Positions 42,203 through 59,195 of a DNA stretch of 64,000 nucleotides are shown here, in pieces. The position numbers and the translations under genes are program-made. The notes beneath the pieces were generated by a model. The model did no database searches. It was not told where the DNA came from and saw only the letters and a program-made list of their open reading frames with translations. The first letter of the stretch is position 1; each line of letters starts with the position of its first letter. The DNA is from Escherichia coli (GTDB lineage Bacteria > Pseudomonadota > Gammaproteobacteria > Enterobacterales > Enterobacteriaceae): NCBI RefSeq assembly GCF_024223415.1, contig NZ_CP100500.1; one strand, given 5' to 3'.

Positions 42203-42751
42203 TTATTGATACTGAACCTTGAAGGTCGCATCCGCATTAGCTGCGCCAGGGGTTGCGGCACCGGTTGCAAAATAACGCGCCTGGAACGGAATGGTGTTGG
42301 TTCCGTTATTCAGGGTTGTTTGTGCACTAAATGTCGCACCGTCCAGCGCCAGCGCAGCGCCCGTTCTGTCCAGGATCTGCACACCAACTTTTGTTGCGCT
42401 ACCCGCAGCTGAACTCTGCAAAGCTAATACGTTAGGATGAGTGCCATCAATTGCGGTACCAAGGAAGGCAATAGCTGCTTTGTCTGCAACAGTAGTGTCA
42501 CAATCGTTCAGTTGAATGTTAAAACCGACAGCAGAACTGGTTGCTCCTTCTTGTGCCAGCGATGCGGTACGAACCTGTCCTAACTGAACGGTTTGATCAA
42601 CAGAGCCTGCATCAACTGCGCAAGCGGCATTAACAATTTCCCCTTTAAAGTGAACGGTCCCACCATTTACCGTCGTAGTATCGGCCAGAGCCGCTGCGGA
42701 ACTGAGGGACAGAGCCGACAGAACAACGATTGCCAGAGTTTTAATTTTCAT
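42203..42751 (-). CDS. fimA: Type 1 fimbrial major subunit FimA
   Basis: ORF track to 42808; start [23 protein letters not shown] at 42751, 182 aa; shows allelic differences from the K-12 FimA I recall (expected antigenic variation). Confidence 0.95.
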
Positions 42752-42870
42752 GCTGCTTTCCTTTAAAAAAACTATTTCTAAATCGACATGGGCAGTCGTT
42801 CTGTACACTTTGTTTTGTCAACGAGTTTGACTGCCAACACTGCACAGTTTTCCCCCAAAAGATGAAACAT

Positions 42871-43184
42871 TTGGGGCCATTTTGACTCATAGAGGAAAGC
42901 ATCGCGCACAAACTTTTTCAGTTTATTTGTTGGCTTAATATTCTATTGTTATCTTTATTTATAGATTTTTATATTGAATGAGGTGGTTTTTGGAGAGAAG
43001 AATGAGGAAGATGCGTCGAGCCACAGAAACGTTAGCTTTACATATAGCGGAGGTGATGTGAAATTAATTTACAAGAGAAATAATTTACATATCAAACAGT
43101 TAGATGATTTTTGTCGTTTTTTAAGATTTTTATGCTTGAGAAAAAATACGTAACTTATTTATGATATGGACAGTTTGGCCCCAA
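42871..43184. promoter_or_regulatory. fimS: fimS invertible phase-variation switch (314 bp) bounded by 9-bp inverted repeats TTGGGGCCA (42871-42879) and TGGCCCCAA (43176-43184); orientation appears OFF
   Basis: Both 9-bp IRs found exactly 314 bp apart between fimA and fimE. The only good sigma70-like promoter inside (TTGAGA-N18-TATGAT, 43136-43165) is on the plus strand, pointing toward fimE and away from minus-strand fimA. Confidence 0.8.
43136..43165 (+). promoter_or_regulatory. fimA promoter (-35 TTGAGA, -10 TATGAT) as positioned in the phase-OFF orientation
   Basis: Hexamers read directly from sequence; lies 10 bp inside the fimE-proximal inverted repeat and is oriented antisense to fimA. 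Confidence 0.55.
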
Positions 43185-43231
43185 TTGTCTTGTATTTATT
43201 TGTTTTTTAACTTTATTATCAATAAGTTAAA

Positions 43232-43828
43232 TCAAACCTCTTCTCTTTTTAATTTTTCGTTTATGAGATTATTTCTTTCCCATAATCCGGCAAAACGAGC
43301 AGCATTACTGGCGGTATAACGTACAGTATGGCGAATATTTCGATGCCCGAGATAATCCTGAATTAAACGAGTATCTGCACCACGCTCCGCCAGTTCATAA
43401 CCGCAAGCATGCCTTAACATATGAGGATGAGTCTGCGTTACGGTTCCAGCTTCAATACCGGCATCACGAATAATGCGATAGGCCTGCTGGCGAGAAAGCC
43501 GACTCCCGCGGCGAGAAATAAATATGGCGTCGGTCCGGTCAGCGCCTTTCCAGTTAGCACGTTCCTGGGTCCAGCGTTCCACGGCTTCACGCTCATCAAA
43601 ACGCAACGGGTGAACGGTAGAAAACCCGTTCTTCAGTCGGCGAATATTTATTCGACCTTCATTAAGGTCAAGATCCTGATAATGCAGATCAAGCAGTTCA
43701 CTAATACGCATCCCATGCCGATATGCCAACAGAATAAGACAATAATCTCTGGCTCCCGTTGCCCCGTAACAAACCGCCTGCATCATGGCCTGAACTTCTT
43801 TACCGGTAAGATAACGACGTTTACTCAC
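43232..43828 (-). CDS. fimE: Tyrosine recombinase FimE (ON-to-OFF switching)
   Basis: 198 aa; integrase-family C-terminal motifs (HPHMLRHACGYELAERG, LGHRNIRHTVRYT). Confidence 0.97.
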   Translation of the reverse strand: MSKRRYLTGKEVQAMMQAVCYGATGARDYCLILLAYRHGMRISELLDLHYQDLDLNEGRINIRRLKNGFSTVHPLRFDEREAVERWTQERANWKGADRTDAIFISRRGSRLSRQQAYRIIRDAGIEAGTVTQTHPHMLRHACGYELAERGADTRLIQDYLGHRNIRHTVRYTASNAARFAGLWERNNLINEKLKREEV

Positions 43829-44305
43829 AATAGTAGTACTCCTAACTGAGATATATTTGAATGAATACCTATAGGAAACCTCAATAGGTCAAAATTAGCC
43901 CAATAGATAAAAAGATAACCACACACGACGTGATGTGGCTATCAGTCAATTACATTAAATATCATACAAAAATAAAATATCACTGATGTGATAACATCTA
44001 TTTTCATTGATTTGATTCAATATAACAATAGATTGCAGTGGATTAACTTCCAGTTGCTTAAAAAATAAAGAAAAAAGTGCGAAAACAGGAGAATTTAAGT
44101 GATGTGTAAATTTATGAATGATTTTGTTTATTTATTTTGAAGAACACAAACCATTGTATTTTGTATGGATATGGTTAACTTAATGTTTATTATGATAATT
44201 AAGAATTATACTTACAATAACATCAATTAATAAATGGTTAATCATTTTTGATATATCGTAAGAATAATGTAGTTTTTAACACCATCCCTGGTATCTCAAC
44301 TATCT

Positions 44306-44908
44306 CTATAAAACAGCGTGACGCTGTCGTCCTCTGGCTCTATCCCAGATGCCGTAAAAACGCCCTGCATTGCTGGCGGTATACCAGACAGTATGACGAA
44401 TATTGCGATGCCCAAGATAATCCTGGATAAGTCGCGTATCTATTCCCATATTCGCCAAAGCAAAACCACACGAATGGCGTAACATGTGCGGATGAATCTC
44501 CAGTGACAACCCGGCATTACCACCGGAAGTCGAGATAATATGGTAAAACTGTTGCCGAGAAAGCGGATTCCCCTTACGCGATAAAAATACCCACTCGCTC
44601 TCAGCATGCGGGTACGAAGTACGGATACTCAACCAGTTTTTTAAAGCCTGAACTTCTTTGTTCAATAGCGGGTGCGTTGTTGAAAAGCCTTTTTTTAATC
44701 GATGGATATATATACACTTTGCCTTAAGATCAATATCCGAAATCCTCAATCGACAAATTTCACTCGCCCGGAAACCATGAATAAAACAAAGCAAAGTCAG
44801 ACAATAATTACGTGCTGCATGAGGCCCGGTATTTGCTGCTTTAAGGAGTGATTCGATTTCACTATGGGTCAGGAAGTTCCTTTTTTTGTTATCAGCCTTA
44901 TTCTTCAT
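44306..44908 (-). CDS. fimB: Tyrosine recombinase FimB (bidirectional switching)
   Basis: ORF track to 44938; start MKNKADNKKRNFLTHSEIESLLKAAN at 44908, 200 aa; paralog of fimE. Confidence 0.95.
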   Translation of the reverse strand: MKNKADNKKRNFLTHSEIESLLKAANTGPHAARNYCLTLLCFIHGFRASEICRLRISDIDLKAKCIYIHRLKKGFSTTHPLLNKEVQALKNWLSIRTSYPHAESEWVFLSRKGNPLSRQQFYHIISTSGGNAGLSLEIHPHMLRHSCGFALANMGIDTRLIQDYLGHRNIRHTVWYTASNAGRFYGIWDRARGRQRHAVL

Positions 44909-45923
44909 CGTTTTTCCCTTATAATTACAGACGCGCACTAGCTGTGCTGGGTTAGCAATAATCCAACATTTTTATCCTGATTATGTTTATAAAAGCGAAC
45001 GTTTGCTTAATAACTAACGTAAGTGGACCAGTTCTTCTGAGTGAACTTAAATGGGGTAGCAACAGTTAATTATAATAACGTTGCCATACAAACGCTATGC
45101 TCTTGCATGCTATGTACCTTTATATATTTATCAATCGGATACGAATCTAATAATAACCCTCATCATTAATGCAACTAATCTTATCTATATATCATGTGAT
45201 ATGTTCTGTAACAAGTAAAATCAACATAAAAAATTCAGCAAAATTTAATATTCGTTCAACTAGCCGTCTCACATATGACATTATTAGTCAACTCCATTTG
45301 CCACAAAATGGCTATTTCATGGAGCGCAGTAATTTCTTAGTGGCTATTATCATGCTAATTCTTAGGTCCCTAGCGATTATTCCTGGCTGGTTCGTCAGCT
45401 TACGCCATGAGATTGTTACATTCCTTTTTATCCTGGAGATATGGGGGAACGCAGGAGATGATTTTTTCATCTACATTCGTTGGTAAATATGGCTTTGGTC
45501 ACTACGACTTAAACCTTCCTCAATCACAGCCATTCGCCGGGCGATACGGCAAACAAACTAAGTGAAACATCATCCTGAAAACACCAACATCAACAAGCCT
45601 CTCCAGATCGACTTCAGAAGTGACCAGTTACAAGCCACAAACCAGGAAACATATTTCATGATGAGAATTATGCTCAGCCTGATGGCGGGTAAACACTGAT
45701 TTTCACCAAGCTCACTGAGTTAGCTTGCAAAGCTTCCCTTGTTTAGACTCTAAATAAATTTTTTATAAAACAAATAGTTAAAAGAAGATCTTTAGTTTTT
45801 GAAGACCACTGCAAGTGTTCGTCTGGCTTCACATGGCATCTTCCTCTTAGAAAAAGATCGACATATTTTGTGACACGAATTGCAAATCTGGTTTTGTTGT
45901 ATGGATTGCGTGATTTTTGATCT

Positions 45924-45946
45924 GGTATAACAGGTATAAAGGTGCA
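45924..45946. promoter_or_regulatory. Putative NanR operator (GGTATA-ACA-GGTATA-AA-GGTGCA repeats) in the nanC-fimB divergent regulatory region
   Basis: Two perfect and one degenerate GGTATA hexamers seen in sequence about 420 bp upstream of nanC; assignment to NanR is from recalled knowledge of the sialic-acid regulon. Confidence 0.4.
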
Positions 45947-46361
45947 CCAAGATAGTCAATGAGACAGGGCATCTCGCAATCTATGGCAAACATCACTTCA
46001 GTTCTTTCTCATCGGGTGATGAAAACGCACTTCAGTCTGAAAGGAATATGAAAATGAGATCAATAGACACTCTATTTTATGACTCTGGGTAAAATGAATT
46101 GAGTAAGTGATATAGCTTACGAACATTCAAATCAATTAAACATCAGAAGAGATTTTATACTCAGGTATTTAATCTGGCTCTCTGTTTATTTAAATAATGT
46201 GGAAAGAGAATTTTCACAGGAGACCTTATACAAAAAATATAAAATAAGCTACCCGTTGCCAAAGACACTATAAGCCTGGCAAAAAATATTACACAACATA
46301 AATGCTAATTGTTTATGCGGGCTTTGTATTGCTTTCTGTATCCTACAAATGAGTGAAATTT

Positions 46362-47078
46362 ATGAAAAAGGCTAAAATACTTTCTGGCGTATTATTACTG
46401 TGCTTTTCGTCACCATTAATTTCTCAGGCTGCGACACTGGACGTACGTGGTGGATATCGTAGTGGAAGCCACGCCTATGAGACTCGACTCAAAGTCAGTG
46501 AGGGATGGCAAAATGGATGGTGGGCAAGTATGGAAAGTAATACCTGGAATACCATTCATGATAATAAAAAGGAAAATGCCGCACTCAATGATGTTCAGGT
46601 TGAAGTTAATTACGCGATTAAACTTGATGATCAATGGACGGTGCGCCCGGGAATGTTAACGCATTTTAGCAGCAACGGCACACGCTACGGACCCTACGTA
46701 AAACTGTCCTGGGACGCGACAAAAGATCTTAATTTTGGCATTCGCTATCGTTACGACTGGAAAGCTTACCGACAACAAGACTTATCCGGTGATATGTCTC
46801 GTGATAACGTTCATCGTTGGGATGGATATGTCACTTACCATATTAATAGTGATTTCACCTTCGCATGGCAAACGACGCTATACAGCAAACAGAACGATTA
46901 TCGCTATGCAAACCATAAGAAATGGGCGACGGAAAATGCATTTGTTCTACAATACCATATGACGCCCGATATTACGCCATACATAGAATATGACTACCTG
47001 GACCGTCAGGGTGTTTACAACGGCAGAGATAATTTATCGGAAAACAGTTATCGCATTGGTGTGTCATTTAAACTGTAG
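46362..47078 (+). CDS. nanC: N-acetylneuraminic acid outer-membrane channel NanC (KdgM family)
   Basis: ORF track 46353..47078; start MKKAKILSGVLLLCFSSPLISQA (46362) with signal peptide; 238 aa. Confidence 0.9.
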   Translation: MKKAKILSGVLLLCFSSPLISQAATLDVRGGYRSGSHAYETRLKVSEGWQNGWWASMESNTWNTIHDNKKENAALNDVQVEVNYAIKLDDQWTVRPGMLTHFSSNGTRYGPYVKLSWDATKDLNFGIRYRYDWKAYRQQDLSGDMSRDNVHRWDGYVTYHINSDFTFAWQTTLYSKQNDYRYANHKKWATENAFVLQYHMTPDITPYIEYDYLDRQGVYNGRDNLSENSYRIGVSFKL

Positions 47079-47097
47079 TAGACAGGAGACAGTCACA

Positions 47098-48204
47098 ATG
47101 AATAAAACAATAACGGCGCTTGCTATCATGATGGCTTCATTTGCCGCAAACGCGTCTGTATTACCGGAAACTCCTGTGCCATTTAAAAGTGGTACCGGAG
47201 CAATTGATAACGACACTGTCTACATTGGTTTAGGTAGCGCAGGTACGGCATGGTACAAGCTGGATACACAGGCCAAAGATAAAAAATGGACAGCGTTAGC
47301 TGCATTCCCTGGCGGACCAAGAGATCAAGCAACCTCTGCATTTATTGATGGCAATCTGTATGTGTTTGGCGGCATTGGCAAAAACAGCGAGGGCTTGACT
47401 CAGGTATTTAATGACGTACACAAATACAACCCCAAAACCAATAGCTGGGTTAAATTGATGTCGCACGCGCCGATGGGCATGGCGGGCCATGTGACTTTTG
47501 TACACAACGGCAAGGCTTATGTTACTGGCGGTGTTAACCAGAATATCTTCAATGGCTATTTTGAAGATCTCAACGAGGCTGGAAAAGATTCAACCGCTAT
47601 AGATAAAATCAACGCTCACTATTTTGACAAAAAAGCAGAAGATTATTTCTTCAATAAGTTTCTGTTGTCTTTTGATCCCTCAACACAGCAATGGAGTTAC
47701 GCTGGCGAATCTCCCTGGTACGGAACGGCTGGTGCGGCGGTTGTGAATAAAGGTGATAAAACCTGGCTTATTAATGGCGAAGCCAAACCAGGATTGCGAA
47801 CGGATGCCGTATTTGAACTTGATTTCACCGGCAATAATTTAAAATGGAATAAGCTTGCTCCCGTCTCATCACCAGATGGCGTCGCTGGCGGTTTTGCGGG
47901 GATAAGCAATGATTCTCTTATATTTGCCGGAGGGGCCGGATTCAAAGGTTCACGAGAAAATTACCAGAACGGTAAGAACTATGCGCATGAAGGCCTGAAA
48001 AAATCATATAGCACTGATATTCATCTTTGGCATAACGGGAAATGGGATAAATCGGGTGAATTATCGCAAGGTCGGGCCTACGGAGTATCATTGCCCTGGA
48101 ATAATAGTCTATTGATTATTGGCGGTGAAACTGCAGGCGGCAAAGCGGTGACGGATTCAGTTTTGATCTCTGTGAAGGATAATAAAGTCACAGTACAAAA
48201 CTAA
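47098..48204 (+). CDS. nanM: N-acetylneuraminate mutarotase NanM (Kelch beta-propeller)
   Basis: ORF track 46990..48204 overlaps nanC; ATG at 47098 (MNKTITALAIMMASFAANA, signal peptide) gives 368 aa. Confidence 0.9.
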   Translation: MNKTITALAIMMASFAANASVLPETPVPFKSGTGAIDNDTVYIGLGSAGTAWYKLDTQAKDKKWTALAAFPGGPRDQATSAFIDGNLYVFGGIGKNSEGLTQVFNDVHKYNPKTNSWVKLMSHAPMGMAGHVTFVHNGKAYVTGGVNQNIFNGYFEDLNEAGKDSTAIDKINAHYFDKKAEDYFFNKFLLSFDPSTQQWSYAGESPWYGTAGAAVVNKGDKTWLINGEAKPGLRTDAVFELDFTGNNLKWNKLAPVSSPDGVAGGFAGISNDSLIFAGGAGFKGSRENYQNGKNYAHEGLKKSYSTDIHLWHNGKWDKSGELSQGRAYGVSLPWNNSLLIIGGETAGGKAVTDSVLISVKDNKVTVQN

Positions 48205-48268
48205 CGCTTCAGGGCCCCAGTAAAGGGGCCCTGCTATCAATTTGTCATTTCAATTACGCGAAATTTAT

Positions 48269-49249
48269 ATGAACGCAATAATATCGCCTGATTATTACTA
48301 TGTTCTTACCGTTGCTGGTCAGTCTAATGCCATGGCGTATGGCGAAGGACTGCCATTACCGGACAGGGAAGATGCGCCTCATCCCAGAATTAAACAATTA
48401 GCGAGATTTGCGCATACGCATCCCGGAGGCCCGTCATGTCACTTTAACGACATTATTCCACTGACTCACTGCCCACACGATGTTCAGGATATGCAGGGTT
48501 ATCACCATCCTCTGGCAACGAATCATCAAACACAGTACGGCACCGTTGGCCAGGCACTGCATATTGCACGGAAATTACTGCCCTTTATTCCTGATAACGC
48601 AGGGGTTCTCATCGTTCCGTGTTGCCGTGGCGGATCGGCTTTTACCGCGGGCAGCGAAGGGACATATTCAGAACGGCACGGAGCCAGCCATGATGCTTGT
48701 CGTTGGGGAACGGATACTCCGCTATACCAGGATTTAGTCAGCAGAACGCGAGCCGCATTGGCAAAAAATCCGCAGAACAAATTCCTCGGCGTATGCTGGA
48801 TGCAAGGCGAATTTGACTTAATGACCAGTGACTACGCGTCACACCCTCAACACTTTAATCATATGGTTGAAGCCTTTCGTAGGGATCTAAAACAATACCA
48901 TTCTCAGCTTAATAATATTACTGATGCGCCCTGGTTTTGCGGCGATACCACCTGGTACTGGAAAGAAAATTTCCCTCATGCGTATGAAGCTATTTATGGC
49001 AATTACCAAAATAATGTTTTAGCCAATATTATTTTCGTCGACTTCCAGCAACAAGGTGAAAGAGGACTGACGAACGCGCCTGATGAAGACCCGGACGATT
49101 TAAGCACGGGATATTACGGTTCAGCGTACCGGTCACCGGAGAACTGGACGACGGCACTGAGAAGCAGCCATTTCAGCGCGGCAGCCCGTCGGGGGATTAT
49201 TTCTGACAGGTTTGTAGAAGCAATTTTGCAGTTTTGGCGCGAAAAGTGA
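48269..49249 (+). CDS. nanS: 9-O-acetyl-N-acetylneuraminate esterase NanS
   Basis: ORF track 48242..49249; start MNAIISPDYYYVLTVAGQSNA at 48269; about 326 aa. Confidence 0.85.
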   Translation: MNAIISPDYYYVLTVAGQSNAMAYGEGLPLPDREDAPHPRIKQLARFAHTHPGGPSCHFNDIIPLTHCPHDVQDMQGYHHPLATNHQTQYGTVGQALHIARKLLPFIPDNAGVLIVPCCRGGSAFTAGSEGTYSERHGASHDACRWGTDTPLYQDLVSRTRAALAKNPQNKFLGVCWMQGEFDLMTSDYASHPQHFNHMVEAFRRDLKQYHSQLNNITDAPWFCGDTTWYWKENFPHAYEAIYGNYQNNVLANIIFVDFQQQGERGLTNAPDEDPDDLSTGYYGSAYRSPENWTTALRSSHFSAAARRGIISDRFVEAILQFWREK

Positions 49250-49379
49250 GCGTTCATTAATTTGATTTATTCGCATCCATCAACGCTTTTAACTCCTCCG
49301 GCGTGCGGCACTATAACGACTTCCACAACAAGGAGCCATTTTCTTATACCACTTTCAGTGACCATCCGCTTATGCCACC

Positions 49380-49790
49380 ACCCTCTACGCAACTGTTTGC
49401 AGAGCACCTTCCCACCGAGTGGATACAGCACTTCCTGACGCTTTCTGCTCATGCGACCGTTCGTCGTCTTAACCTGAGCGTGGATGGCGAAGCGGGGATG
49501 AACCTGCTGGCGCCCGCAGCGCTGTCACCCAGGCGCGTCAGCGCGTGGGGGCCGCCCCGGTGGAATGGCTCTTCCGCCAGACCGCACAGACATGGGGCGC
49601 GGAACGTTACCTGAAGGATGACTGGCACGGCCTGCAACTTTTTGCCATTGATGGCGCACAGTTCAGGACACCTGATGAACCCGAGCTGCGTGAATATTAT
49701 GGCTCTGCCAACACATCCACTGAGCGGCAGAGCGCCTACCCCGTCATGCGTCTGGTGGCGTTAATGAATCTGGGAATCACATTCTACTGA
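49380..49790 (+). pseudogene. Remnant of an IS4-family transposase gene (N-terminal region, frameshifted and truncated)
   Basis: Two consecutive frames (49303..49614, 49545..49790) give ...TVRRLNL... and ...WHGLQLFAIDGAQFRTPDEPE...YPVMRLVALMNL, resembling the IS4 transposase N-terminal LTLLAIDGVFWRTPDTPE...YPQVKMVCQMEL region from memory; no intact ORF or terminal IRs seen. Confidence 0.45.
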
Positions 49791-50742
49791 ATGCCATGAC
49801 CGCGCCTACCAGCGGAGCGATACGGCGTGAGGCAACAAAAGCGGCGTCAGAGATCAGCTTTAAGTTCGCGTTCCAGTTTATCGTGACAGAAATGATAGTG
49901 CTGGGAAACACGGCGTCACCGGGGACTATCCCGAAACGACTGGAGCATCTGCGGGGGCTCTGGAAGTGGTGTTCATAACAAAACGCCCCCGACCATCAAG
50001 GGCGAGGGCGGTTAAGATATCAAAAACCCGTTATCCTGTGAAACACAGTGCCGCCCCGATTAAGTGAACGGCATTGTGTTTCTGAGGGACCTTAATTTTC
50101 CCTGATTCTCTGACGTTCCTTACCATTGATATTTCCTTCATTCCTCACCAGAGAAATAAAAAATCACTATACTCATCAAAATATGAGATTACCTTTATTC
50201 AGGTGATCACCTTACTATTTTTTACGGAAAATAAATTATGAATAACAAGAAATCACTGACAAACCACCTGTAAAATGTCAATCATTTTAGTTCAATTGCC
50301 TTTGTCATGATTATCTTTTTATCGTCCTGACGATACTATTAACAATTGCAATTTTTATACCCCTCCTGAACAAATAGAAAAGAACTAATATATTCGTTTA
50401 TAATTCTGGTAATCCTGGCATCATACGTTTAAAACTTAAGATATTTATTTTATCATCATCATGGTTCCAGAGACTATTGGTCAGCTGGAAATGCCAGCCT
50501 TTTCGTGCCAGCTATATTTGTCCAGTGTGTCACCCCATCCAAAAATCATCCACATCCTGACGTTACGTTAGATATAGAGAAAACAGGTTGTACTGTGCAA
50601 TATGCAAACCGCATAAGCGAATATAATTTCTAAGTTGATATTGTCTGGCTGTTGGGAGCTAAGCAATATAAATATCGCCAGTTGCCAGAACGGTTATATA
50701 GACCAGGAGCGTTTCGGCTCCTGGCCTGTTTTGGACATATTA

Positions 50743-52857
50743 TCAGTCAGCCACTAATAGCGGACTAGGGACACCAGATGATGAAACAAACAGCCCTTTT
50801 ACGGCACGGGTTGCAGCCACATGCAGTAACGCGCGCTCATTAAATAATGCATCACGCTGTTCAACGGGATCATCGGATGCTAATGCTTTTATTTCCGGCA
50901 CAACGCCTTCGTTAATCCCCACCAGGAACACATACTGGAACTCAAGCCCTTTAATACGGTGCATCGTTGCAACCCGCACGCCAGGGCGTGCATCGCTGTC
51001 ACCGCTATCATTGCCTAAATTAAATGTCTCAATTCCGGCGTCATTCAGTGCTGATGCGTAGCGGTCACAAGCATGTTTAGTACGCGCAGTAATGCAGATA
51101 TCCTGAGAACGAACCTGATTCGCCAGCAATGCCTGAATTTGCTTGACGAGCGTTGCAGCCTCTTCTTTGAAATCTGCCGCATGCGTAATCATGGGCTTTT
51201 CCCCGTGCAGTAATGACAAATAATCATTACTGGTATCCGCTTCGCCATCGAGGTTATCAACCTTCACACCAGTTAACAGCCCAACAGCAAATTGACGCGT
51301 CTCTTCTGTGGTCCGATAGTTAATCTTCAATTTTTTACTGCGACGACCACGGACGTTAATACCACACTGACCAAGAACGACCTTATTGCGATAAATACGC
51401 TGATGCCCATCCCCGACAATAAACAGATCGTTGGGCGACTCGGGAACCAGGCTGCGAATAAGAGTAAATGCCGGGGCACCGATATCTTGAGCTTCATCGA
51501 CCACAATACTGCTATAAGGTAGTTGGACCTGCTTTTCTTTAAACAGAACAATAGCCTCATGCATGGCATCGCCCATTTCGCGCAGTTTGGCACGCGCCAT
51601 TTGTGCTCTGAATTCTTCAAAGACTGGCCAGATTTTCGCCCGTTGAATACGGGATAACGCTGTACCACGTCCAACCCGGCTGACTTTGAGGTATTCCTCC
51701 CGGGTGTAAACCGCATTTGGCTGGACAACGCGTTGCCACTCTTCAGCATAGAAATTATCAGGTAGCCCCAGTTCGGCAGGTGCCTGCTGCAAGGCATAGT
51801 TCCAGCATTTGCGTCGCCCTTCATCGCTGTCGTATACCACGCGGAAATCATAACCGTGGCGTTTTAGTTGGTCGCTCATCCAGGCATCAATGTTAACGAC
51901 GTCAATACGCGCCATCTCTTCTCGCGTACACAACCGCTGGAGATTAGCGCGAATATCTGCCGCCAGGTTACGCGTAAAGGTCGTGAAAAGTACCTTCTTA
52001 CCGGGTTTATCTGCCAGACGCTGAGATAACCACCGCGCACGGTGCATCGCAACAACCGTTTTCCCTGTACCTGCACCGCCCAGTACTCGTACCGGACCAT
52101 TAGCGGGCGACTCCACCAGTTTTCGCTGGCTCGGATGCAGAAATACACGCCATTTTTCTAAAGGCGCATTAAGCATCTGCAACAGCTCCTGTTCATTTTC
52201 AACGACATGGAAGCGACGTTTACTTCGTTCAATCGCCTCCATAAAGTCGTTGGTATCAACAGGCTCATCACGATGATCGTTAAACTCTTCCAGCACTTCC
52301 TGGTAATCCAGCCCTTCTGCCAGCCAGTGCAGAGGTTCCCAGGCTTCTGCTGGCATTATGCTTTCAAGTTGGTTAAGCCCGGCTTCATCGGTAAGCGCCA
52401 TCACCTGATCAATAAAGACAGGCGGCACGCCCAGGGCCAGAATCTGTTCCGCGCTGTAAGCCGCGAAGAGTTTCGGTTTATCAACCACCGCTTCCGGTGC
52501 CGGTTTGATATAGCTAATATCAATAACCTGAATCGCGCCGGTAACTGGGTGAATCGAACAATCATGCCGCCGCGCCCAGTCGTATGCTTCGTCGTGTTTA
52601 TCCACCCACATCAGCATATACAGGGCACCCTGTTCAGGTTTCAGAACAATGCCGCGATAAGTTTGATCGATTCGCACCGAATGGACATTTTTACTGCGCG
52701 CATCGTGGATCTTTTCATAGTTAAGTCCATTACTGGTCGGGTCCTGACGGAATTTGGAGATGAATTCCTGCACCTTTTTTTGCTGTGCTTTTGGGATCCG
52801 CGCGAATGCGCCCAGAAAACCATCAGAAAGTGCCACCTTGGGCGTTTGCACCGTCAT
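50743..52857 (-). CDS. UvrD/Rep-like SF1 helicase (704 aa) with about 250-aa N-terminal domain of unknown function; third gene of candidate defence operon
   Basis: Walker A LGGAGTGKT (aa 259-267), Walker B/motif II VVDEAQD, C-terminal motif MHRIKGLEFQYVFLV typical of UvrD/PcrA family; ATG overlaps upstream gene stop (ATGA at 52854-52857). Confidence 0.85.
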   Translation of the reverse strand: MTVQTPKVALSDGFLGAFARIPKAQQKKVQEFISKFRQDPTSNGLNYEKIHDARSKNVHSVRIDQTYRGIVLKPEQGALYMLMWVDKHDEAYDWARRHDCSIHPVTGAIQVIDISYIKPAPEAVVDKPKLFAAYSAEQILALGVPPVFIDQVMALTDEAGLNQLESIMPAEAWEPLHWLAEGLDYQEVLEEFNDHRDEPVDTNDFMEAIERSKRRFHVVENEQELLQMLNAPLEKWRVFLHPSQRKLVESPANGPVRVLGGAGTGKTVVAMHRARWLSQRLADKPGKKVLFTTFTRNLAADIRANLQRLCTREEMARIDVVNIDAWMSDQLKRHGYDFRVVYDSDEGRRKCWNYALQQAPAELGLPDNFYAEEWQRVVQPNAVYTREEYLKVSRVGRGTALSRIQRAKIWPVFEEFRAQMARAKLREMGDAMHEAIVLFKEKQVQLPYSSIVVDEAQDIGAPAFTLIRSLVPESPNDLFIVGDGHQRIYRNKVVLGQCGINVRGRRSKKLKINYRTTEETRQFAVGLLTGVKVDNLDGEADTSNDYLSLLHGEKPMITHAADFKEEAATLVKQIQALLANQVRSQDICITARTKHACDRYASALNDAGIETFNLGNDSGDSDARPGVRVATMHRIKGLEFQYVFLVGINEGVVPEIKALASDDPVEQRDALFNERALLHVAATRAVKGLFVSSSGVPSPLLVAD

Positions 52858-55800
52858 TTGTCACCTCCGGACAGATGTTGCAATGTATTTTCGTCAATTG
52901 GCCCGAATGCAACGTGCCAACCTCTGGTTGTGAATAATGGAATAAATTCTTGATTATCAATAATCAATGCCCATTTTTGTGATGGCCAGGCGAGATCGGC
53001 TTCCGCAATAATTTCACCTTCATCATTTTGCAATTCGTAGCCGAGAGTCGGCGCAGAGAGAGAATGAGACTGAAGCAACGCGATCTCTTCAGCGCTTAAT
53101 AAGCCAAACTCAATAATCTCAGCCCAACTCTCATCAGTCTCTGGTACTGCCTCTGGCGTTGCCGAAACTTTAGTGTCAACGCTTTCCTGCGGTAAATGCA
53201 CGGCTTTACGGCTGGTAAAGGTCATATCCGGCAGGAACTGTAACAGGTTTACCAGTCGCCAGAAGCCATTGAGTCCCGCTTCATAACCGTCATCCTGCGT
53301 ATAGCGATCGTCAAAACAGATATGCAAACGCAGCCAGCTGCGCATTTGTGCGACGCTGGTCGTCGGTTTAATGGCTTGTTGTGGCAACACCGAAGCCAGC
53401 TCAATAAATTGCTGCGATGAGTTACAGCTATCGAGTAAACCACCAAAGACAAACGGTTCGTCTGGCAAAAGCTCTGCTAGCCGCCAGGCTGGCGCGTTTT
53501 CCTGCATTTCATAGGCATACTTTTGTTTCGTTCCCGCGTCCTGTGACTTCTTCACATCCAACCACACCCAGGCATGTGCAGCAGCCATTCTCTGCCATAA
53601 CTGCGTTCTTCCGCCCGGATCGGCGAGATAATCCAGCAGCAGTGCAAAACTGTTGCGTTCCCGGAACGACGCTTCAAGGGCCGCAAAGTTGGTATCGTGA
53701 AACAGGTTATAAAACTTAGGCTGTTTCATATCCGGGTTATGCCCAAGTCCCAGGACATCCTGAACATGTTTAAGCCCAGGCTCTTTGAGATCGGCCCACG
53801 TGACTGTCCACACCCAGAAATTACCGCTATCCCGAATCGCCTGGCGTTTTTGCACATCCTCTGCGACGCTATTTTTGTGGAACGCAAAGCCATCAAGGAA
53901 AATAGCCACCGGTTTAATGACATCAGACTGCATAAGCGGATATAGCACGTAATCCGGGCGACAAGGGATCCCCACCGCCTCTTTAGCGCCTAAATCCACC
54001 TGAGCTTTAAGATGCCAGCTCATCATCGGTTCGCTGCGGGTGTTAATAATCCACCCAGCGCCCTGATGCGCGTAACTGCGACTGACAATCAGGTTTTTAT
54101 TTTCTTGCAGGCAGCTAATAAACCGTTTTTCCAGCTCACTGCCCATCATGGCTTCGAGGGAAATGTTTTTGATGGAATCAATTACCCGTATCGAATCTCT
54201 TGCCTGCAAAATTTTCGCCAGCAAGAGACGCGCCTGATCGCGGGAGACATACTTCATGCGCCCACGGTCACGGTAAGCGTAAACGCAACGATAACAACCA
54301 TCTTTATGCGTATCATTGTTGCAACTGCATTCCACTATTGCCTGATAGGCCAGTTCAAGTAATTTCAGCAAATTGTCGGGAGTGCGCATCAGCTCTTTAA
54401 GAGAACCAGTTCCCCCCGGGACGGTATCGTAAATCACCAGATACTGCCTCCAGGATTCGCCTTCATTTTCCGGCTCGCGGTACACAACGCCTTTCAGGTG
54501 ATCGACATTCCCCTTGAAGTAATGTTTAAGGCCGAGCTGGATCGCCGCCCCAAGAGAAGCCTCCACGACACGGTCATTACTGTAACTGCTTACCGGGAGC
54601 AGAATACGCAACGCTTCTGACTCCAGCTGGCGATAGAGATAGAGATAATCTTCGAACTTCGCCTTTTCCGGTTCCGTGCGATATTTGCAGCTCAAATCAT
54701 GACGTGGTTCATGATCGCGAGGACGCTGCACCATGCCGCACCCGAGGCAAACTTTAAACCCGGTTCGCTTCTTCGCTTCTCCGGCAATCATCAACTCATT
54801 GGCATCATCCGCCATTTTGCCGAAGTTGATATCCCGCAGGGTGACTTTGCTTAAAAATTCAAAACCAAACGGAACTTCGCCTTCCTCAATCGCGTATGCC
54901 GCCGATACATCTTCTTTTTCGAAACTAACCAATAGCTGACGCTGGAAGAAAGCAGGTTCACGGCTGTCGCTATCGTCGCTGATCTGGCTATCACGTGCGC
55001 TGGCGCGGGCATAAACCTGGCGAAGTTTCAGCAGCGTGGTTTTTTGTCCGGCATCGGCCCACCCCGGTGTGCCACATTTCGGGCAATATTTATGCTGGTC
55101 GCCCGTCTGGTCGATATTTTCGCTGTAGTTACAGTGGCTACAGATACGCCAGTTCTCCGGCTCAGAGACCTTCAGGTCTATCTGCTCAATTTCAACTTTA
55201 TGCCCACCGGCATAGAAATTATTCAGCGGAGCCAGCTCAGCCAGCGCCGTTGATGCCGGGCGTTCATATTCGAAAGTGGTGTTTTGATATTCACGCGCTT
55301 CCCCGCCTTCTTTACGCCGCCAGAGCACAGAACGTAACGTAATACCGGCTTCCGGGAAGGCGTAGTTAGGCAGCAGACCTTCATCCGTGAGGAAATTCAG
55401 CGTTTGCTTATTGTTGATTTGATTGACCAGCGCCATCAGCGCCTGCCGTTCTGAAGTCAGTTCGCGCATATCGCTGTCAAAGTTTTGATCGCGCGGCGCG
55501 TTCTCCAGTTTATCGATGCTGCGCTTGAGTTTATCGATGCGTGAGCGCAAAGATTTGCGATCTTCCACCAGCAGTTTTAACGCTTCTTCGATACGCTGCA
55601 CCAGCGAACGTTGCCCTGGCGCGCCCTGAAGATAAGACAACAGCTGTTGGCGAGTTTCTGCGGCAAGATCGGGGAAGATCGCCGTAAATTGTGCAGCAAT
55701 CTCCGCATGATGCTGTTCGATATATCGCAGTAAGTTATACGGAAAACCCGATTTACGCCCGAACTCCAGCTCATCCAGCATCTGTTTGACGTTTTTACAG

Positions 55801-58800
55801 ATAGCGGATTCTGGTACACCGGTTTTCACCCAGTTATCCATACAAAAAGCTGCCAGCTGGCGTTCGAGAATAGCCGTTGCATTGAGGAAGACGCCAGGAG
55901 CCTGCACCTGGCCCTGCATCATCTCCAGCGGTTCTTCAAAGAAAAACTGATCGTGCGGGTTCCCTTCTGCCACGGTAATGTTTAACGCGTTACCATCTTT
56001 ACGACCGGCGCGACCAATACGCTGCAAGTAGTTGGCCTGAGCAGGTGGGACAGAACAGAGTAAAACGGTGGAAAGATCGCCAACGTCAATACCCATCTCC
56101 AGCGTCGGTGTTGCCGACAACAGGTTGATATTCCACGGTTGGTTGCCGCGGTAGAACGATTTTTCGGTGGCTTCGCGATCTTCACGGCTAAGCAGCCCCG
56201 TGTGTTCTGCGCCCTGTACGCGCGCGATGTCCATGTTCTCCCAACGCCAGGTCGCCGTATTGTCGACTTCCTGGTAACGACCTTCACAACGTAAAGAGAG
56301 ACAAGGCGCATTACGCCACTGCCAGCCTTGATCGGCCGGAGCCCGGACAACCTCACGGCAACATGAACAATTAAGCTGAACGACGTCACGGCTCACCACC
56401 AGCGCCGAAGGCACCAGTCCCCAGGCTTCACGCCCTTTGGTGTCAAAATCTTTTACTACTCCGGCTATTTTCAACGCCGTAAACAGGCGTCGTAACACTG
56501 TTTCCGCAACGCTACTGATAAACAGATTATTGCCGTTACTCAGCGTGCGATTGATCCAATGCTGATACCAACTGGGGTTAGACTTCGCGCCAATCAGGCG
56601 ATGGAAACCATTAATTTTTTCAAACGACGCATAAGCCGGTTTACGCGTTTTCGGACCGATAGAAGGCATATAGCGCGAGGTACGCTCTTTTTGCGTCATC
56701 ATAAAGGTCGTGCCATCACGGCGATAACTTTCGAACGCCGGATGCATAACGGCCCCGGCCTGGCGTTGATACCAGATAACCCCCAGCGCCAGGTGCGCGA
56801 CCTGCTCGACGCTCACACCGGACATCTCATCACCCAGCTCTTCACAAAGCTGTTGATGCAGGGCGGTAATTGCCGGATTAAAGCGTTCTTTATCCACTCC
56901 GGCAACGGCATAACCGGTGGCTTCCAGCGTACGTCCGATACGCGCGCGCAGGGTGAATTCGCTGTACACCTCCCAGTCGAGGCGCAGGGAAACCAGCTCC
57001 GGCAGATCGGAGTTCTCCGCCAGTTTGCCTTCATTTTTCAGCATCTGATAATCATTCAGCCACTGCATATTTGGTGCGATGAAGTTCGCTGCAAAATGAG
57101 CATCGTCCGGTGAACGTTCACGCGTTTGTTGGCAAACACGCGCCGCGAACGCATCCAGCGGTAATGTCTCTTTTTCGCCAAGAACACTGGCGATTTGCCC
57201 ACGAATCATCAGCGGCCAGGTACGGGCAGTAAAGAAGCTGGCACGATGCGCGGCGTCTTGTACCGAGTCAGAAAACGTAATCAGCTTTTTATGTTCGTTG
57301 AACTGGCTGCCATAAAGCTGGTGAATCATCACCGCCGACAAACTGGCAGCCCGTGACCCCAGGATCGAAATCCCCTGTTTGCTGTTGCAGTACGGGCATT
57401 CATTAGCAAACTCCAGCTCGTCCTTACGCTCTTTGAGCATATCCGGGATCAGTACCTGCAACAGTTCCGTATGACCGCAATGTCCACACTGGACGCTGGA
57501 CTGTCGGTTCAGTTTCAGACAGGTAGGACACAGTTTCTGGTGTGCGCCACTGACCGCTTTTTCGTTGTTATCCGGGAAAGCAAGGACGATGGAGCGTCCT
57601 TTTTCAAAGAACTGGCGATAAATGCCGTCGAGGTCTGTTTCCAGCTGAACGCTTTGCCCATGACGCAGGCTGGCCCAGCCAGTTGCGTGGCAGTCACGGC
57701 AGTGGATAACCGGCAAATAGTGTTCGCGATCTTCCACCGCCACATCATCGGCAAACACCAGTCGGGGCGTTTTCGCCACGCTGGCGACCAGACGACGCAT
57801 CTCACGAAGCCACAACTGGGAGCGCAGTTGCACAAACGGCAGCACCGGACGCGCTTTCTTCGCCTGGAGACGTTTTTGCCGATCGTGTTCCGTTTCCGGT
57901 ACTTCGAGACGTGCCTGTGCGATCAGCGCCAGAATGCTTTGCAGCACGCGTCGGGCATGGTCGGCGCTTTCTGCCAGCATGACCTGGAGATTTTCCAGAC
58001 ACTCTCGTTCAGAGAGGATCCCGCCTTGCAGATCATGGAGTAAGACATGCATCACGCTGTGGCGGCGTAACAGTGACCCCAGCGCAATACGCTTTTCACG
58101 CCCGTCGTCGCTCTCCAGATCGTCCGGGAGTTGCAAGTCGCTGTCGGGGAACCACAAAGGGATTTGCCCGTTAAGATACGCTACCGGGGTAGCGTAACTC
58201 TGCGGGTCCAGGGCCGAAGCGACCTCCGGCCCCGGATACTGACTGTACGCAATGGCGTAATCCTGCAAGTACTCCGCTGCCGTGTAGCGATCTTCGCGAA
58301 TAACGGCGTCATCGGTAAACGGCTGGTCAAAGATTGTTTTTGCGTAATCGAGCAGTTGCCCCAGCTCGTCGCCGACGGTAGCTGATGTCCCGACGCAGGC
58401 GAATCGTTGGTTATCTACACCTATGTGATGCTTCAGACGTCGCACCAGACAGGCCAGATCCGACCCTTGCGCGCCATCAAACGTATGCAATTCATCCACG
58501 ACCAGGTAACGCAATGAACCGGGCTGGTTGTAACGCCAGAGCGGCTGATCGCCAGGGCGCATCAGCAGGTAGTCGAGCATTTTGTAGTTGGTCAACAGGA
58601 TGTCCGGCGGGCTTTCGCGCAGCGTGTGCTTGCAGGTAATGACCTTTTCTGCCGACATTTTTTTGCTGGGTTCGATTTCGCTGTCGCCGACAAACAGGCC
58701 GACGGTCACCTTGCCATGCAGTTGTGTATCGCTGGCGATGGTTTTGGCGAAACGGCTGGCCTGATCGGTTGCCAGGGCGTTCATCGGGTAGATGATAATC

Positions 58801-59195
58801 GCTTTAACCCCGGCTTGTGACGCGCCCGCGCAGTGGTTGAGCAGCGGGAACATAAAGCATTCTGTTTTACCGGAGCCGGTACCGGTAGCAACCAGCGTCG
58901 GCTGTGGCGCGTCGCTTCCCAGACGCTGAAATGCCCGGGCCTGATGCGCGTGCGGCGGGAACGGCAGCGTCAGATTAGGGAAGAAATTCAGCGGTAAGTC
59001 ACTTTTACGAAACGGCAACTGGGCGGAAAGGTATGGTCCTTTCAGCAGCGTTTCGGGCTGGGCCAGAAATTGCTCCAGCATTGAGACATTATCGTTATTC
59101 TCACCGTTAAACAGCGGACTGTTTAGCGGGAACGCCGCCCGTAAAAAGGCGGCAACGCTGTCGGCGACCTGCCGACTGACAACGGATGGCAGCAT
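52854..59195 (-). CDS. Giant multidomain SF2 (DExH, Lhr-like) helicase, 2113 aa, with zinc-ribbon/Cys clusters (DUF1998-like) and C-terminal Vsr/DUF559-like endonuclease motif; second gene of candidate defence operon
   Basis: Motif I ATGTGSGKT (58863-58883), Ia YPMNALATDQ, II VVDELH (58485-58496), V LEMGIDVGD and VI QRIGRAGR about 800 aa later; Cys clusters CSHCN...CPKCG and CSC...DGCYRC; FLDGFAFH...RQAIRDSG near aa 1740-1800 (about 53796-53978); start codon overlaps stop of upstream gene. Confidence 0.85.
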   Translation of the reverse strand: MLPSVVSRQVADSVAAFLRAAFPLNSPLFNGENNDNVSMLEQFLAQPETLLKGPYLSAQLPFRKSDLPLNFFPNLTLPFPPHAHQARAFQRLGSDAPQPTLVATGTGSGKTECFMFPLLNHCAGASQAGVKAIIIYPMNALATDQASRFAKTIASDTQLHGKVTVGLFVGDSEIEPSKKMSAEKVITCKHTLRESPPDILLTNYKMLDYLLMRPGDQPLWRYNQPGSLRYLVVDELHTFDGAQGSDLACLVRRLKHHIGVDNQRFACVGTSATVGDELGQLLDYAKTIFDQPFTDDAVIREDRYTAAEYLQDYAIAYSQYPGPEVASALDPQSYATPVAYLNGQIPLWFPDSDLQLPDDLESDDGREKRIALGSLLRRHSVMHVLLHDLQGGILSERECLENLQVMLAESADHARRVLQSILALIAQARLEVPETEHDRQKRLQAKKARPVLPFVQLRSQLWLREMRRLVASVAKTPRLVFADDVAVEDREHYLPVIHCRDCHATGWASLRHGQSVQLETDLDGIYRQFFEKGRSIVLAFPDNNEKAVSGAHQKLCPTCLKLNRQSSVQCGHCGHTELLQVLIPDMLKERKDELEFANECPYCNSKQGISILGSRAASLSAVMIHQLYGSQFNEHKKLITFSDSVQDAAHRASFFTARTWPLMIRGQIASVLGEKETLPLDAFAARVCQQTRERSPDDAHFAANFIAPNMQWLNDYQMLKNEGKLAENSDLPELVSLRLDWEVYSEFTLRARIGRTLEATGYAVAGVDKERFNPAITALHQQLCEELGDEMSGVSVEQVAHLALGVIWYQRQAGAVMHPAFESYRRDGTTFMMTQKERTSRYMPSIGPKTRKPAYASFEKINGFHRLIGAKSNPSWYQHWINRTLSNGNNLFISSVAETVLRRLFTALKIAGVVKDFDTKGREAWGLVPSALVVSRDVVQLNCSCCREVVRAPADQGWQWRNAPCLSLRCEGRYQEVDNTATWRWENMDIARVQGAEHTGLLSREDREATEKSFYRGNQPWNINLLSATPTLEMGIDVGDLSTVLLCSVPPAQANYLQRIGRAGRKDGNALNITVAEGNPHDQFFFEEPLEMMQGQVQAPGVFLNATAILERQLAAFCMDNWVKTGVPESAICKNVKQMLDELEFGRKSGFPYNLLRYIEQHHAEIAAQFTAIFPDLAAETRQQLLSYLQGAPGQRSLVQRIEEALKLLVEDRKSLRSRIDKLKRSIDKLENAPRDQNFDSDMRELTSERQALMALVNQINNKQTLNFLTDEGLLPNYAFPEAGITLRSVLWRRKEGGEAREYQNTTFEYERPASTALAELAPLNNFYAGGHKVEIEQIDLKVSEPENWRICSHCNYSENIDQTGDQHKYCPKCGTPGWADAGQKTTLLKLRQVYARASARDSQISDDSDSREPAFFQRQLLVSFEKEDVSAAYAIEEGEVPFGFEFLSKVTLRDINFGKMADDANELMIAGEAKKRTGFKVCLGCGMVQRPRDHEPRHDLSCKYRTEPEKAKFEDYLYLYRQLESEALRILLPVSSYSNDRVVEASLGAAIQLGLKHYFKGNVDHLKGVVYREPENEGESWRQYLVIYDTVPGGTGSLKELMRTPDNLLKLLELAYQAIVECSCNNDTHKDGCYRCVYAYRDRGRMKYVSRDQARLLLAKILQARDSIRVIDSIKNISLEAMMGSELEKRFISCLQENKNLIVSRSYAHQGAGWIINTRSEPMMSWHLKAQVDLGAKEAVGIPCRPDYVLYPLMQSDVIKPVAIFLDGFAFHKNSVAEDVQKRQAIRDSGNFWVWTVTWADLKEPGLKHVQDVLGLGHNPDMKQPKFYNLFHDTNFAALEASFRERNSFALLLDYLADPGGRTQLWQRMAAAHAWVWLDVKKSQDAGTKQKYAYEMQENAPAWRLAELLPDEPFVFGGLLDSCNSSQQFIELASVLPQQAIKPTTSVAQMRSWLRLHICFDDRYTQDDGYEAGLNGFWRLVNLLQFLPDMTFTSRKAVHLPQESVDTKVSATPEAVPETDESWAEIIEFGLLSAEEIALLQSHSLSAPTLGYELQNDEGEIIAEADLAWPSQKWALIIDNQEFIPLFTTRGWHVAFGPIDENTLQHLSGGDK

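What the first reader, a model, noticed from the sequence alone, without database searches (positions are those of the whole stretch)
42871..43184. fim phase switch captured in the OFF orientation
The 314-bp element between the 9-bp inverted repeats contains a strong sigma70-like promoter (TTGAGA-N18-TATGAT) that lies next to the fimE-proximal repeat and points toward fimE, away from fimA. In the ON state the same sequence would be inverted and sit next to the fimA-proximal repeat reading into fimA. The sequenced molecule therefore represents phase-OFF cells, so type 1 fimbriae would not be expressed from this template.
Basis: partly seen in the sequence, partly recalled or inferred. Interest (0 to 1): 0.5.

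Follow-up and report, generated by a model that had tools for sequence, protein, structure and literature searches.

The report
Ordinary fimS switch, assembled phase-OFF
This is the well-known 314-bp invertible promoter switch of the E. coli type 1 fimbrial operon, assembled in its OFF orientation, which is the orientation seen in about 94% of complete E. coli genomes, so it is correct but ordinary.

Summary
Two perfect 9-bp inverted repeats (TTGGGGCCA, 42871-42879 and 43176-43184) bound a 314-bp element. It lies between fimE (43232-43828, minus strand) and fimA (42203-42751, minus strand). The best sigma-70 match, TTGAGA-18-TATGAT (43136-43165, plus strand), sits 10 bp inside the fimE-proximal repeat and reads away from fimA.

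The OFF reading is supported by tests that do not depend on the promoter guess:
- In-silico versions of two published orientation assays both give the OFF fragment pattern: OL4/OL20 with BstUI, and CMD1258/1259 with HinfI.
- Flipping the core in silico gives the ON pattern in both assays.
- The element is colinear with the MG1655 reference, which also scores OFF.
- It is the exact reverse complement (293/296) of the core in a natural ON assembly, strain EC93.

Of 4718 complete E. coli genomes with a match, 4451 share this orientation and 244 are inverted. FimB and FimE are 100% identical to K-12, and the switch has no indel relative to K-12. It is therefore most likely a normal, switchable fimS whose majority (FimE-driven) state was assembled.

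Already known; low interest. The only oddity is a private C-to-A substitution at 42977 inside the switch.

The parts
42871..43184 (.). fimS, the 314-bp invertible element including both 9-bp repeats, in the phase-OFF orientation
   Evidence: 99% identical and colinear with MG1655, no indel. The OFF state is shown.
42871..42879 (+). fimA-proximal 9-bp inverted repeat (IRR), TTGGGGCCA
   Evidence: Naming follows PMC9993118 and PMC2647292.
43176..43184 (-). fimE-proximal 9-bp inverted repeat (IRL), TTGGGGCCA on the minus strand
43136..43165 (+). PfimA candidate: -35 TTGAGA (43136-43141), 18-nt spacer, -10 TATGAT (43160-43165). It reads towards fimE in this orientation. The inferred start lies around 43172, just inside IRL.
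   Evidence: Both hexamers are identical to K-12. It lies at the end of fimS opposite the BstUI/LRP-2/Fis end, which PMC9993118 calls promoter-distal. That these hexamers are the mapped fimA promoter (Olsen and Klemm 1994) is from my own memory; that paper was not readable here.
42913..42948 (.). Fis site overlapping Lrp site LRP-2 (core 42926-42933), at the promoter-distal end of fimS
   Evidence: The wild-type version of mutagenesis primer FBSREV2 of PMC9993118 is found exactly in the sequence.
42903..42906 (.). Single BstUI site (CGCG) used for the orientation assay. HinfI (42884-42888) and SnaBI (43147-43152) are also asymmetric in the element.
43232..43828 (-). fimE, tyrosine-type DNA invertase that drives ON-to-OFF switching
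   Evidence: 100% identical to MG1655 FimE. NF007371 scores 451.7 bits against a cut-off of 222.
44306..44908 (-). fimB, tyrosine-type DNA invertase that switches in both directions
   Evidence: 100% identical to MG1655 FimB. NF007370 scores 458.4 bits against a cut-off of 221.
42203..42751 (-). fimA, major type 1 fimbrial subunit and first gene of fimAICDFGH. It is disconnected from its promoter in this orientation.
   Evidence: NF011741 scores 183.3 bits against a cut-off of 140. The gene order matches strain NCTC10444.

Best explanation
This is the canonical E. coli fim switch (fimS), assembled in the phase-OFF orientation. The 314-bp segment carries the fimA promoter at one end. The tyrosine recombinases FimB and FimE, encoded just upstream, cut and rejoin within the two 9-bp repeats and invert the segment.

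In the orientation present here, the promoter end abuts the fimE-proximal repeat and fires away from fimA. The fimAICDFGH operon therefore has no promoter, and this template makes no type 1 fimbriae. According to the literature, the OFF orientation also places a Rho-dependent terminator inside fimS downstream of fimE. That shortens and destabilises the fimE mRNA.

Both recombinases, both repeats and the whole switch are intact. The strain is therefore most likely a normal phase-variable one. OFF is simply the majority state that an assembler reports, because FimE's ON-to-OFF bias dominates in wild-type cells.

Shown here: the anatomy, the orientation, the intactness of the parts, and how common the OFF state is among assemblies. 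Inferred: the exact transcription start, the terminator effect, and that this particular strain actually switches.
For: Anatomy.

Orientation:
- In-silico BstUI assay gives 539+188 bp (published OFF 539+187); the flipped core gives 434+293 bp (published ON 433+293).
- In-silico HinfI assay gives 414+236 bp (published OFF 411+239); the flipped core gives 519+131 bp (published ON 522+128).
- The element is colinear with MG1655 at 99%, and MG1655 itself gives 540+188 bp.
- The natural ON assembly EC93 matches the reverse complement of the core at 293/296 and gives 433+293 bp.

Census: 4451 genomes share the window's orientation and 244 the inverted one, out of 4718.

Intactness: FimB and FimE are 100% identical to K-12, and there is no indel in fimS.

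Mechanism from the literature: the promoter and a Rho-dependent terminator lie inside fimS, and FimE bias makes OFF predominate (PMC9993118; PMC2647292). The UTI89 reference genome is OFF (PMC6458436). Only 4.3% of E. coli cells formed a fim-expressing cluster in single-cell RNA-seq (bioRxiv 10.1101/2021.03.10.434868).
Against: No read-level data exist for this window, so switching in this strain is not shown. I could not read the primary paper that mapped the fimA start site, so calling TTGAGA/TATGAT the fimA promoter rests on memory plus its position relative to landmarks in PMC9993118. Fragment sizes differ from the published ones by 1-3 bp. One base inside the switch (42977 A) is found in none of 4492 complete genomes with a match to a 61-nt probe centred on 42977, and its effect is unknown.
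Confidence: 0.93

Rival explanations
1. The switch is genetically locked OFF in this strain, as reported for EHEC O157:H7 and EPEC E2348/69. On this view it is not a snapshot of a freely switching population.
For: Locked-OFF lineages exist (PMC9096935; PMC6458436 mentions EHEC regulatory mutations). The window carries a private substitution at 42977 inside fimS, absent from all 4492 genomes with a match to the 61-nt probe. It lies within the first 10 nt of the 135-bp probe that PMC9993118 says contains LRP-1 and LRP-2.
Against: There is no deletion in fimS relative to K-12. Both 9-bp repeats are perfect. FimB and FimE are identical to the functional K-12 proteins. Close relatives with 99.4% identical sequence occur in both orientations. 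Trans-acting factors such as Fis, which keeps E2348/69 OFF, cannot be judged from this window.
Confidence: 0.05
2. The orientation in the assembly is an assembler artefact or arbitrary choice and does not reflect the majority of cells.
For: Invertible elements are a mixture in the sequenced DNA (PMC6458436). The window differs from the near-identical NCTC10444 record by 16 scattered substitutions in 41.3 kb, so small errors or edits cannot be excluded.
Against: The near-identical NCTC10444 assembly has the same orientation. OFF is the expected majority when FimE is intact (PMC9993118). A 314-bp inversion is spanned by single reads on any long-read platform.
Confidence: 0.02
3. The reader misidentified the promoter, and the element is really ON. 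The true fimA promoter would then be another site reading towards fimA, such as the minus-strand TTGATA-18-TAAATT at 43095-43066.
For: That site exists and scores 9/12. The primary start-site paper could not be consulted.
Against: Two published assays, each stating the fragment sizes expected from ON and OFF fimS, both classify this orientation as OFF. Strains locked in this orientation make no fimbriae (PMC9096935). A 9/12 match is at chance level in this AT-rich DNA.
Confidence: 0.01

Closest known systems
E. coli K-12 fimS (fim switch) with FimB/FimE, as in MG1655 NC_000913 between fimE and fimA
   Same: Same locus, same 9-bp repeats, same 314-bp length and same orientation. Identity across fimE-fimA is 99% with identical promoter hexamers. 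The recombinases are identical. The BstUI pattern is the same OFF pattern.
   Different: There are six substitutions inside the element and a one-base shorter A-run in the fimE-fimS spacer. One of the substitutions (42977) is private to this window.
Natural phase-ON assemblies, e.g. E. coli EC93 NZ_CP061329
   Same: Same flanks, repeats and core sequence (293/296 identical).
   Different: The core is reverse-complemented. The promoter lies next to the fimA-proximal repeat and the BstUI fragments are 433+293 bp. Only 244 of 4718 genomes are like this.
Locked-OFF fim switches of EHEC O157:H7 and EPEC E2348/69
   Same: Same OFF orientation and no fimbriae from the template (PMC9096935; PMC6458436).
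   Different: From my own knowledge, the O157:H7 switch carries a 16-bp deletion. No deletion is present here. The E2348/69 lock depends on Fis in trans, which cannot be assessed from this window.
Other tyrosine-recombinase promoter invertons of E. coli (ipuS/upaE, hyxS)
   Same: A short promoter-bearing segment is flipped between short inverted repeats by Fim-family recombinases (PMC6083910; PMC6458436).
   Different: They lie at different loci, have 7-bp repeats and control different target genes. They are not in this window.

Membership tests
fimS invertible promoter switch of the E. coli type 1 fimbrial operon | 314-bp segment bounded by perfect 9-bp inverted repeats (TTGGGGCCA) | tested here: met
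   The definition is from PMC9993118 and PMC2647292.
fimS invertible promoter switch of the E. coli type 1 fimbrial operon | Located between fimE and fimA, with fimB-fimE upstream and fimAICDFGH downstream | tested here: met
   plus annotation of the near-identical NCTC10444 region and of MG1655.
fimS invertible promoter switch of the E. coli type 1 fimbrial operon | Sequence homology to the reference K-12 switch | tested here: met
   99% identity, colinear, with no indel inside the element.
fimS invertible promoter switch of the E. coli type 1 fimbrial operon | Intact FimB and FimE tyrosine recombinases | tested here: met
   Both are 100% identical to MG1655. NF007370 and NF007371 score above their cut-offs.
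fimS invertible promoter switch of the E. coli type 1 fimbrial operon | Sigma-70 promoter for fimA inside the element, near one end | tested here: inconclusive
   A 10/12 consensus match lies 10 bp from the repeat. It is identical to K-12 and sits at the end opposite the 'promoter-distal' Fis/LRP-2 end of PMC9993118. The primary start-site mapping could not be read and no transcript data exist for this window.
fimS invertible promoter switch of the E. coli type 1 fimbrial operon | Both orientations occur in nature, with breakpoints in the 9-bp repeats | tested here: met
   4451 genomes match the window's form and 244 match a synthetic exact flip, full-length and in one piece. EC93 was examined base by base.
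fimS invertible promoter switch of the E. coli type 1 fimbrial operon | Inversion actually takes place in this strain | not testable with these tools
   This needs raw reads or PCR on the culture.
Phase-OFF state of fimS | Restriction pattern of published orientation assays | tested here: met
   BstUI gives 539+188 bp (OFF 539+187). HinfI gives 414+236 bp (OFF 411+239).
Locked-OFF fimS (EHEC type) | Deletion within the switch that prevents inversion | tested here: not met
   The element is 314 bp with no indel relative to K-12.

The most novel reading that the evidence does not exclude
The private C-to-A substitution at 42977 inside fimS matches none of the 4492 complete E. coli genomes hit by a 61-nt probe centred on it. 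It lies at the edge of the region that holds the Lrp sites. It might alter Lrp or IHF binding and shift the switching bias of this strain, giving a natural cis-acting fimS bias mutant.
Probability: 0.03. Interest if true: 0.25.

Novelty: already known. Interest (0 to 1): 0.05.

Why it matters
It matters little beyond correct annotation. The fim switch has been a textbook phase-variation system since 1985, and OFF is the default state of reference assemblies. There are two practical points. fimA expression should not be predicted from an assembly's fimS orientation without looking at the reads. Also, about 5% of complete E. coli genomes (244 of 4718) are deposited with the switch ON, which can look like a structural variant in comparisons.

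Tried and rejected
- **Primary papers not available.** I tried to read Gunther 2002 (PMC128061), Hinde 2005 (PMC1317003) and Abraham 1985 (PMC390624). None is held. Olsen and Klemm 1994 is not in the library either. Full-text searches for the mapped fimA start site or the hexamers found no usable text. TTGAGA and TATGAT do not occur in PMC9096935.
- **SnaBI assay.** The SnaBI site was located at 43147, but the published SnaBI assay could not be reproduced because its primers were not available.
- **Alternative fimA-directed promoter** (43095-43066, 9/12). Rejected as a chance-level match, and OFF-locked strains are afimbriate.
- **16-nt imperfect inverted repeat across the fimE-proximal repeat** (43151-43166 / 43214-43229). 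Not centred on the 9-bp repeat and lies in AT-rich DNA, so not pursued.
- **EHEC-type deletion.** Absent.
- **No intrinsic terminator-like site** was found in 42600-43400. This is compatible with the terminator in fimS being Rho-dependent, but it does not locate it.

Full report
**What is in the sequence**

The window carries the type 1 fimbrial cluster on the minus strand. The genes are fimB (44306-44908), fimE (43232-43828) and fimA (42203-42751), followed by fimI, fimC, fimD, fimF, fimG and fimH at lower coordinates.

Between fimE and fimA, the 9-mer TTGGGGCCA occurs at 42871-42879 on the plus strand and at 43176-43184 on the minus strand. These are its only two copies in the 64 kb. They are separated by 296 nt, which gives a 314-bp element.

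The consensus scan finds TTGAGA (43136-43141), an 18-nt spacer and TATGAT (43160-43165) on the plus strand. This is a 10/12 match and the best in the region. It ends 10 bp before the fimE-proximal repeat and reads towards fimE. Every detail in the finding is therefore correct.

Neither the 9-mer pair nor the promoter match is statistically remarkable on its own. The pair is reached in 16 of 100 shuffles. The three promoter-like sites compare with 2.0 +/- 1.5 in shuffles. The feature is real because of its homology to the K-12 switch.

**Identity**

The fimE-to-fimA interval aligns colinearly with E. coli K-12 MG1655 (NC_000913). Identity is 99%, there is no indel inside the element, and both promoter hexamers and both repeats are identical.

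FimE and FimB are 100% identical to the MG1655 proteins. Both pass the NCBIfam tyrosine-type DNA invertase models well above cut-off.

The window as a whole is nearly identical to strain NCTC10444, a calf isolate. It differs by 16 substitutions over 41.3 kb.

**Which orientation is this?**

I did not want to rely only on the promoter guess, so I reproduced two published wet-lab orientation assays in silico.

| Assay (source) | Published OFF | Published ON | Window as is | Window core flipped |
|---|---|---|---|---|
| OL4/OL20 + BstUI (PMC9993118) | 539+187 | 433+293 | 539+188 | 434+293 |
| CMD1258/1259 + HinfI, 650 bp (PMC6727828) | 411+239 | 522+128 | 414+236 | 519+131 |

PMC9993118 states the BstUI fragment sizes expected from OFF and ON fimS, and works with strains whose fimA-lacZ fusion reports phase as a colony phenotype. 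In the window the OL4/OL20 primers give a 727-bp amplicon with a single CGCG site at 42903. MG1655 gives 540+188 bp in the same assay. The CMD1258/1259 primers give a 650-bp amplicon in the window.

A third landmark agrees. [quoted passage not shown] It draws that site at the right end (IRR) of phase-OFF fimS. The wild-type version of their mutagenesis primer sits at 42913-42948, and its altered core (42926-42933) lies 47 bp from the fimA-proximal repeat. So in this window the promoter-distal end faces fimA, and the end carrying TTGAGA/TATGAT faces fimE.

The window is phase OFF.

**Natural ON examples and how common OFF is**

I built an exact in-silico flip of 42880-43175 within 100-bp flanks. 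I then searched both versions against 5,426 complete E. coli genomes.
- The window's own version is matched over at least 80% of its length in 4451 of 4718 genomes that have the locus.
- The flipped version is matched in 244 genomes, full-length and in one piece at up to 99.4% identity.
- The remaining 23 genomes match neither version over 80%.

One ON assembly, EC93 (NZ_CP061329), was examined directly. It has the same flanks and repeats. Its core matches the reverse complement of the window's core at 293/296, against 77/296 for the direct comparison. Its promoter lies next to the fimA-proximal repeat on the fimA strand, and its BstUI fragments are exactly 433+293 bp.

About 94% of finished genomes therefore show OFF and about 5% show ON. 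The literature states that the UTI89 reference is also OFF (PMC6458436).

**How it works**

The mechanism below comes from the literature, with the parts located here. fimS carries the promoter of the fim structural operon. FimB and FimE recombine within the 9-bp repeats. FimB switches in both directions, while FimE strongly prefers ON-to-OFF and dominates in wild-type cells, so populations are mostly OFF (PMC9993118; PMC2647292).

In the OFF orientation the promoter is disconnected from fimA. A Rho-dependent terminator inside fimS comes to lie downstream of fimE, shortening and destabilising its mRNA. IHF, Lrp, H-NS and Fis shape the recombination substrate.

In a single-cell RNA-seq study, only 4.3% of cells in a culture formed the fim-expressing cluster. 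This fits an assembler reporting OFF.

Several things are inferred here rather than shown. One is the transcription start, expected around 43172. From there a promoter-driven transcript would cross the fimE-proximal repeat and run antisense to the 3' end of fimE. The location of the Rho-dependent terminator is also not shown. The scan found no intrinsic terminator, which is compatible with Rho dependence but not informative. Finally, it is not shown that this strain actually switches.

**Rival readings**

- **Locked-OFF switch of the EHEC type.** Not supported: there is no deletion, the repeats are perfect and the recombinases are intact. A trans-acting lock, such as Fis in EPEC E2348/69 (PMC9096935), cannot be judged from the window.
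- **Assembly artefact.** Unlikely, because the near-identical NCTC10444 record has the same orientation and OFF is the expected majority.
- **Element really ON with a different promoter.** Contradicted by both assay reproductions and by the EC93 comparison.

**Limits**

I could not read the primary start-site paper (Olsen and Klemm 1994) or three other classic papers. That TTGAGA/TATGAT is the experimentally mapped fimA promoter therefore rests on my memory plus positional agreement with PMC9993118. The orientation call does not depend on it.

**Verdict**

The feature is already known and the state is the commonest one. Interest is low. The only unusual detail is a private C-to-A change at 42977 inside the switch. 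None of the 4492 complete genomes with a match to a 61-nt probe centred on 42977 (42947-43007) carries it, and its significance is unknown.

Noticed in passing
window 42977: There is a single-base difference (A here) inside fimS. NCTC10444 and MG1655 both have C at this position. None of the 4492 complete E. coli genomes with a match to the surrounding 61-nt probe matches it exactly. It lies at the edge of the 135-bp probe said to hold Lrp sites 1 and 2. It could be a real private variant, a sequencing error or an edit.
   Followed up: partly
window 22400-63700: The window is nearly identical to E. coli NCTC10444 (calf isolate) but differs by 16 scattered substitutions over 41.3 kb, with no indels. 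It is therefore a very close relative or a different or altered copy of that strain.
   Followed up: partly
window 50743-63967 (minus strand): A defence-island-like trio lies beyond nanC/nanM. It consists of a 704-aa UvrD/GajB-like helicase, a 2113-aa DruE-like giant helicase (Druantia DruE3 model, E = 4.6e-104) with an HNH-like tail, and a methyltransferase of at least 1590 aa that matches a Type IIG restriction-methyltransferase model (E = 4.3e-289). The 20-kb stretch 44000-64000 that contains this trio (together with fimB, nanC and nanM) is covered at 80% or more in 443 complete E. coli genomes, including O157:H7. The system type was not resolved.
   Followed up: partly
window 43151-43166 and 43214-43229: A 16-nt, 88% complementary inverted repeat (TAACTTATTTATGATA / TATTATCAATAAGTTA) straddles the fimE-proximal 9-bp repeat and overlaps the -10 hexamer. 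It exists only in the OFF orientation. It may be chance in AT-rich DNA or may relate to recombinase or IHF half-sites.
   Followed up: no
window 48242-50700: In the near-identical NCTC10444 record, the gene after nanM (sialate O-acetylesterase) is annotated as truncated. It is followed by a frameshifted transposase-domain gene at the border of the defence island. This suggests an insertion scar.
   Followed up: no
E. coli genomes census: 244 of 4718 complete E. coli genomes are deposited with fimS in the ON orientation, and 23 match neither form over 80% of the 501-bp probe. I did not examine whether the ON assemblies are enriched for fimE or fimB defects or for particular culture conditions.
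   Followed up: no
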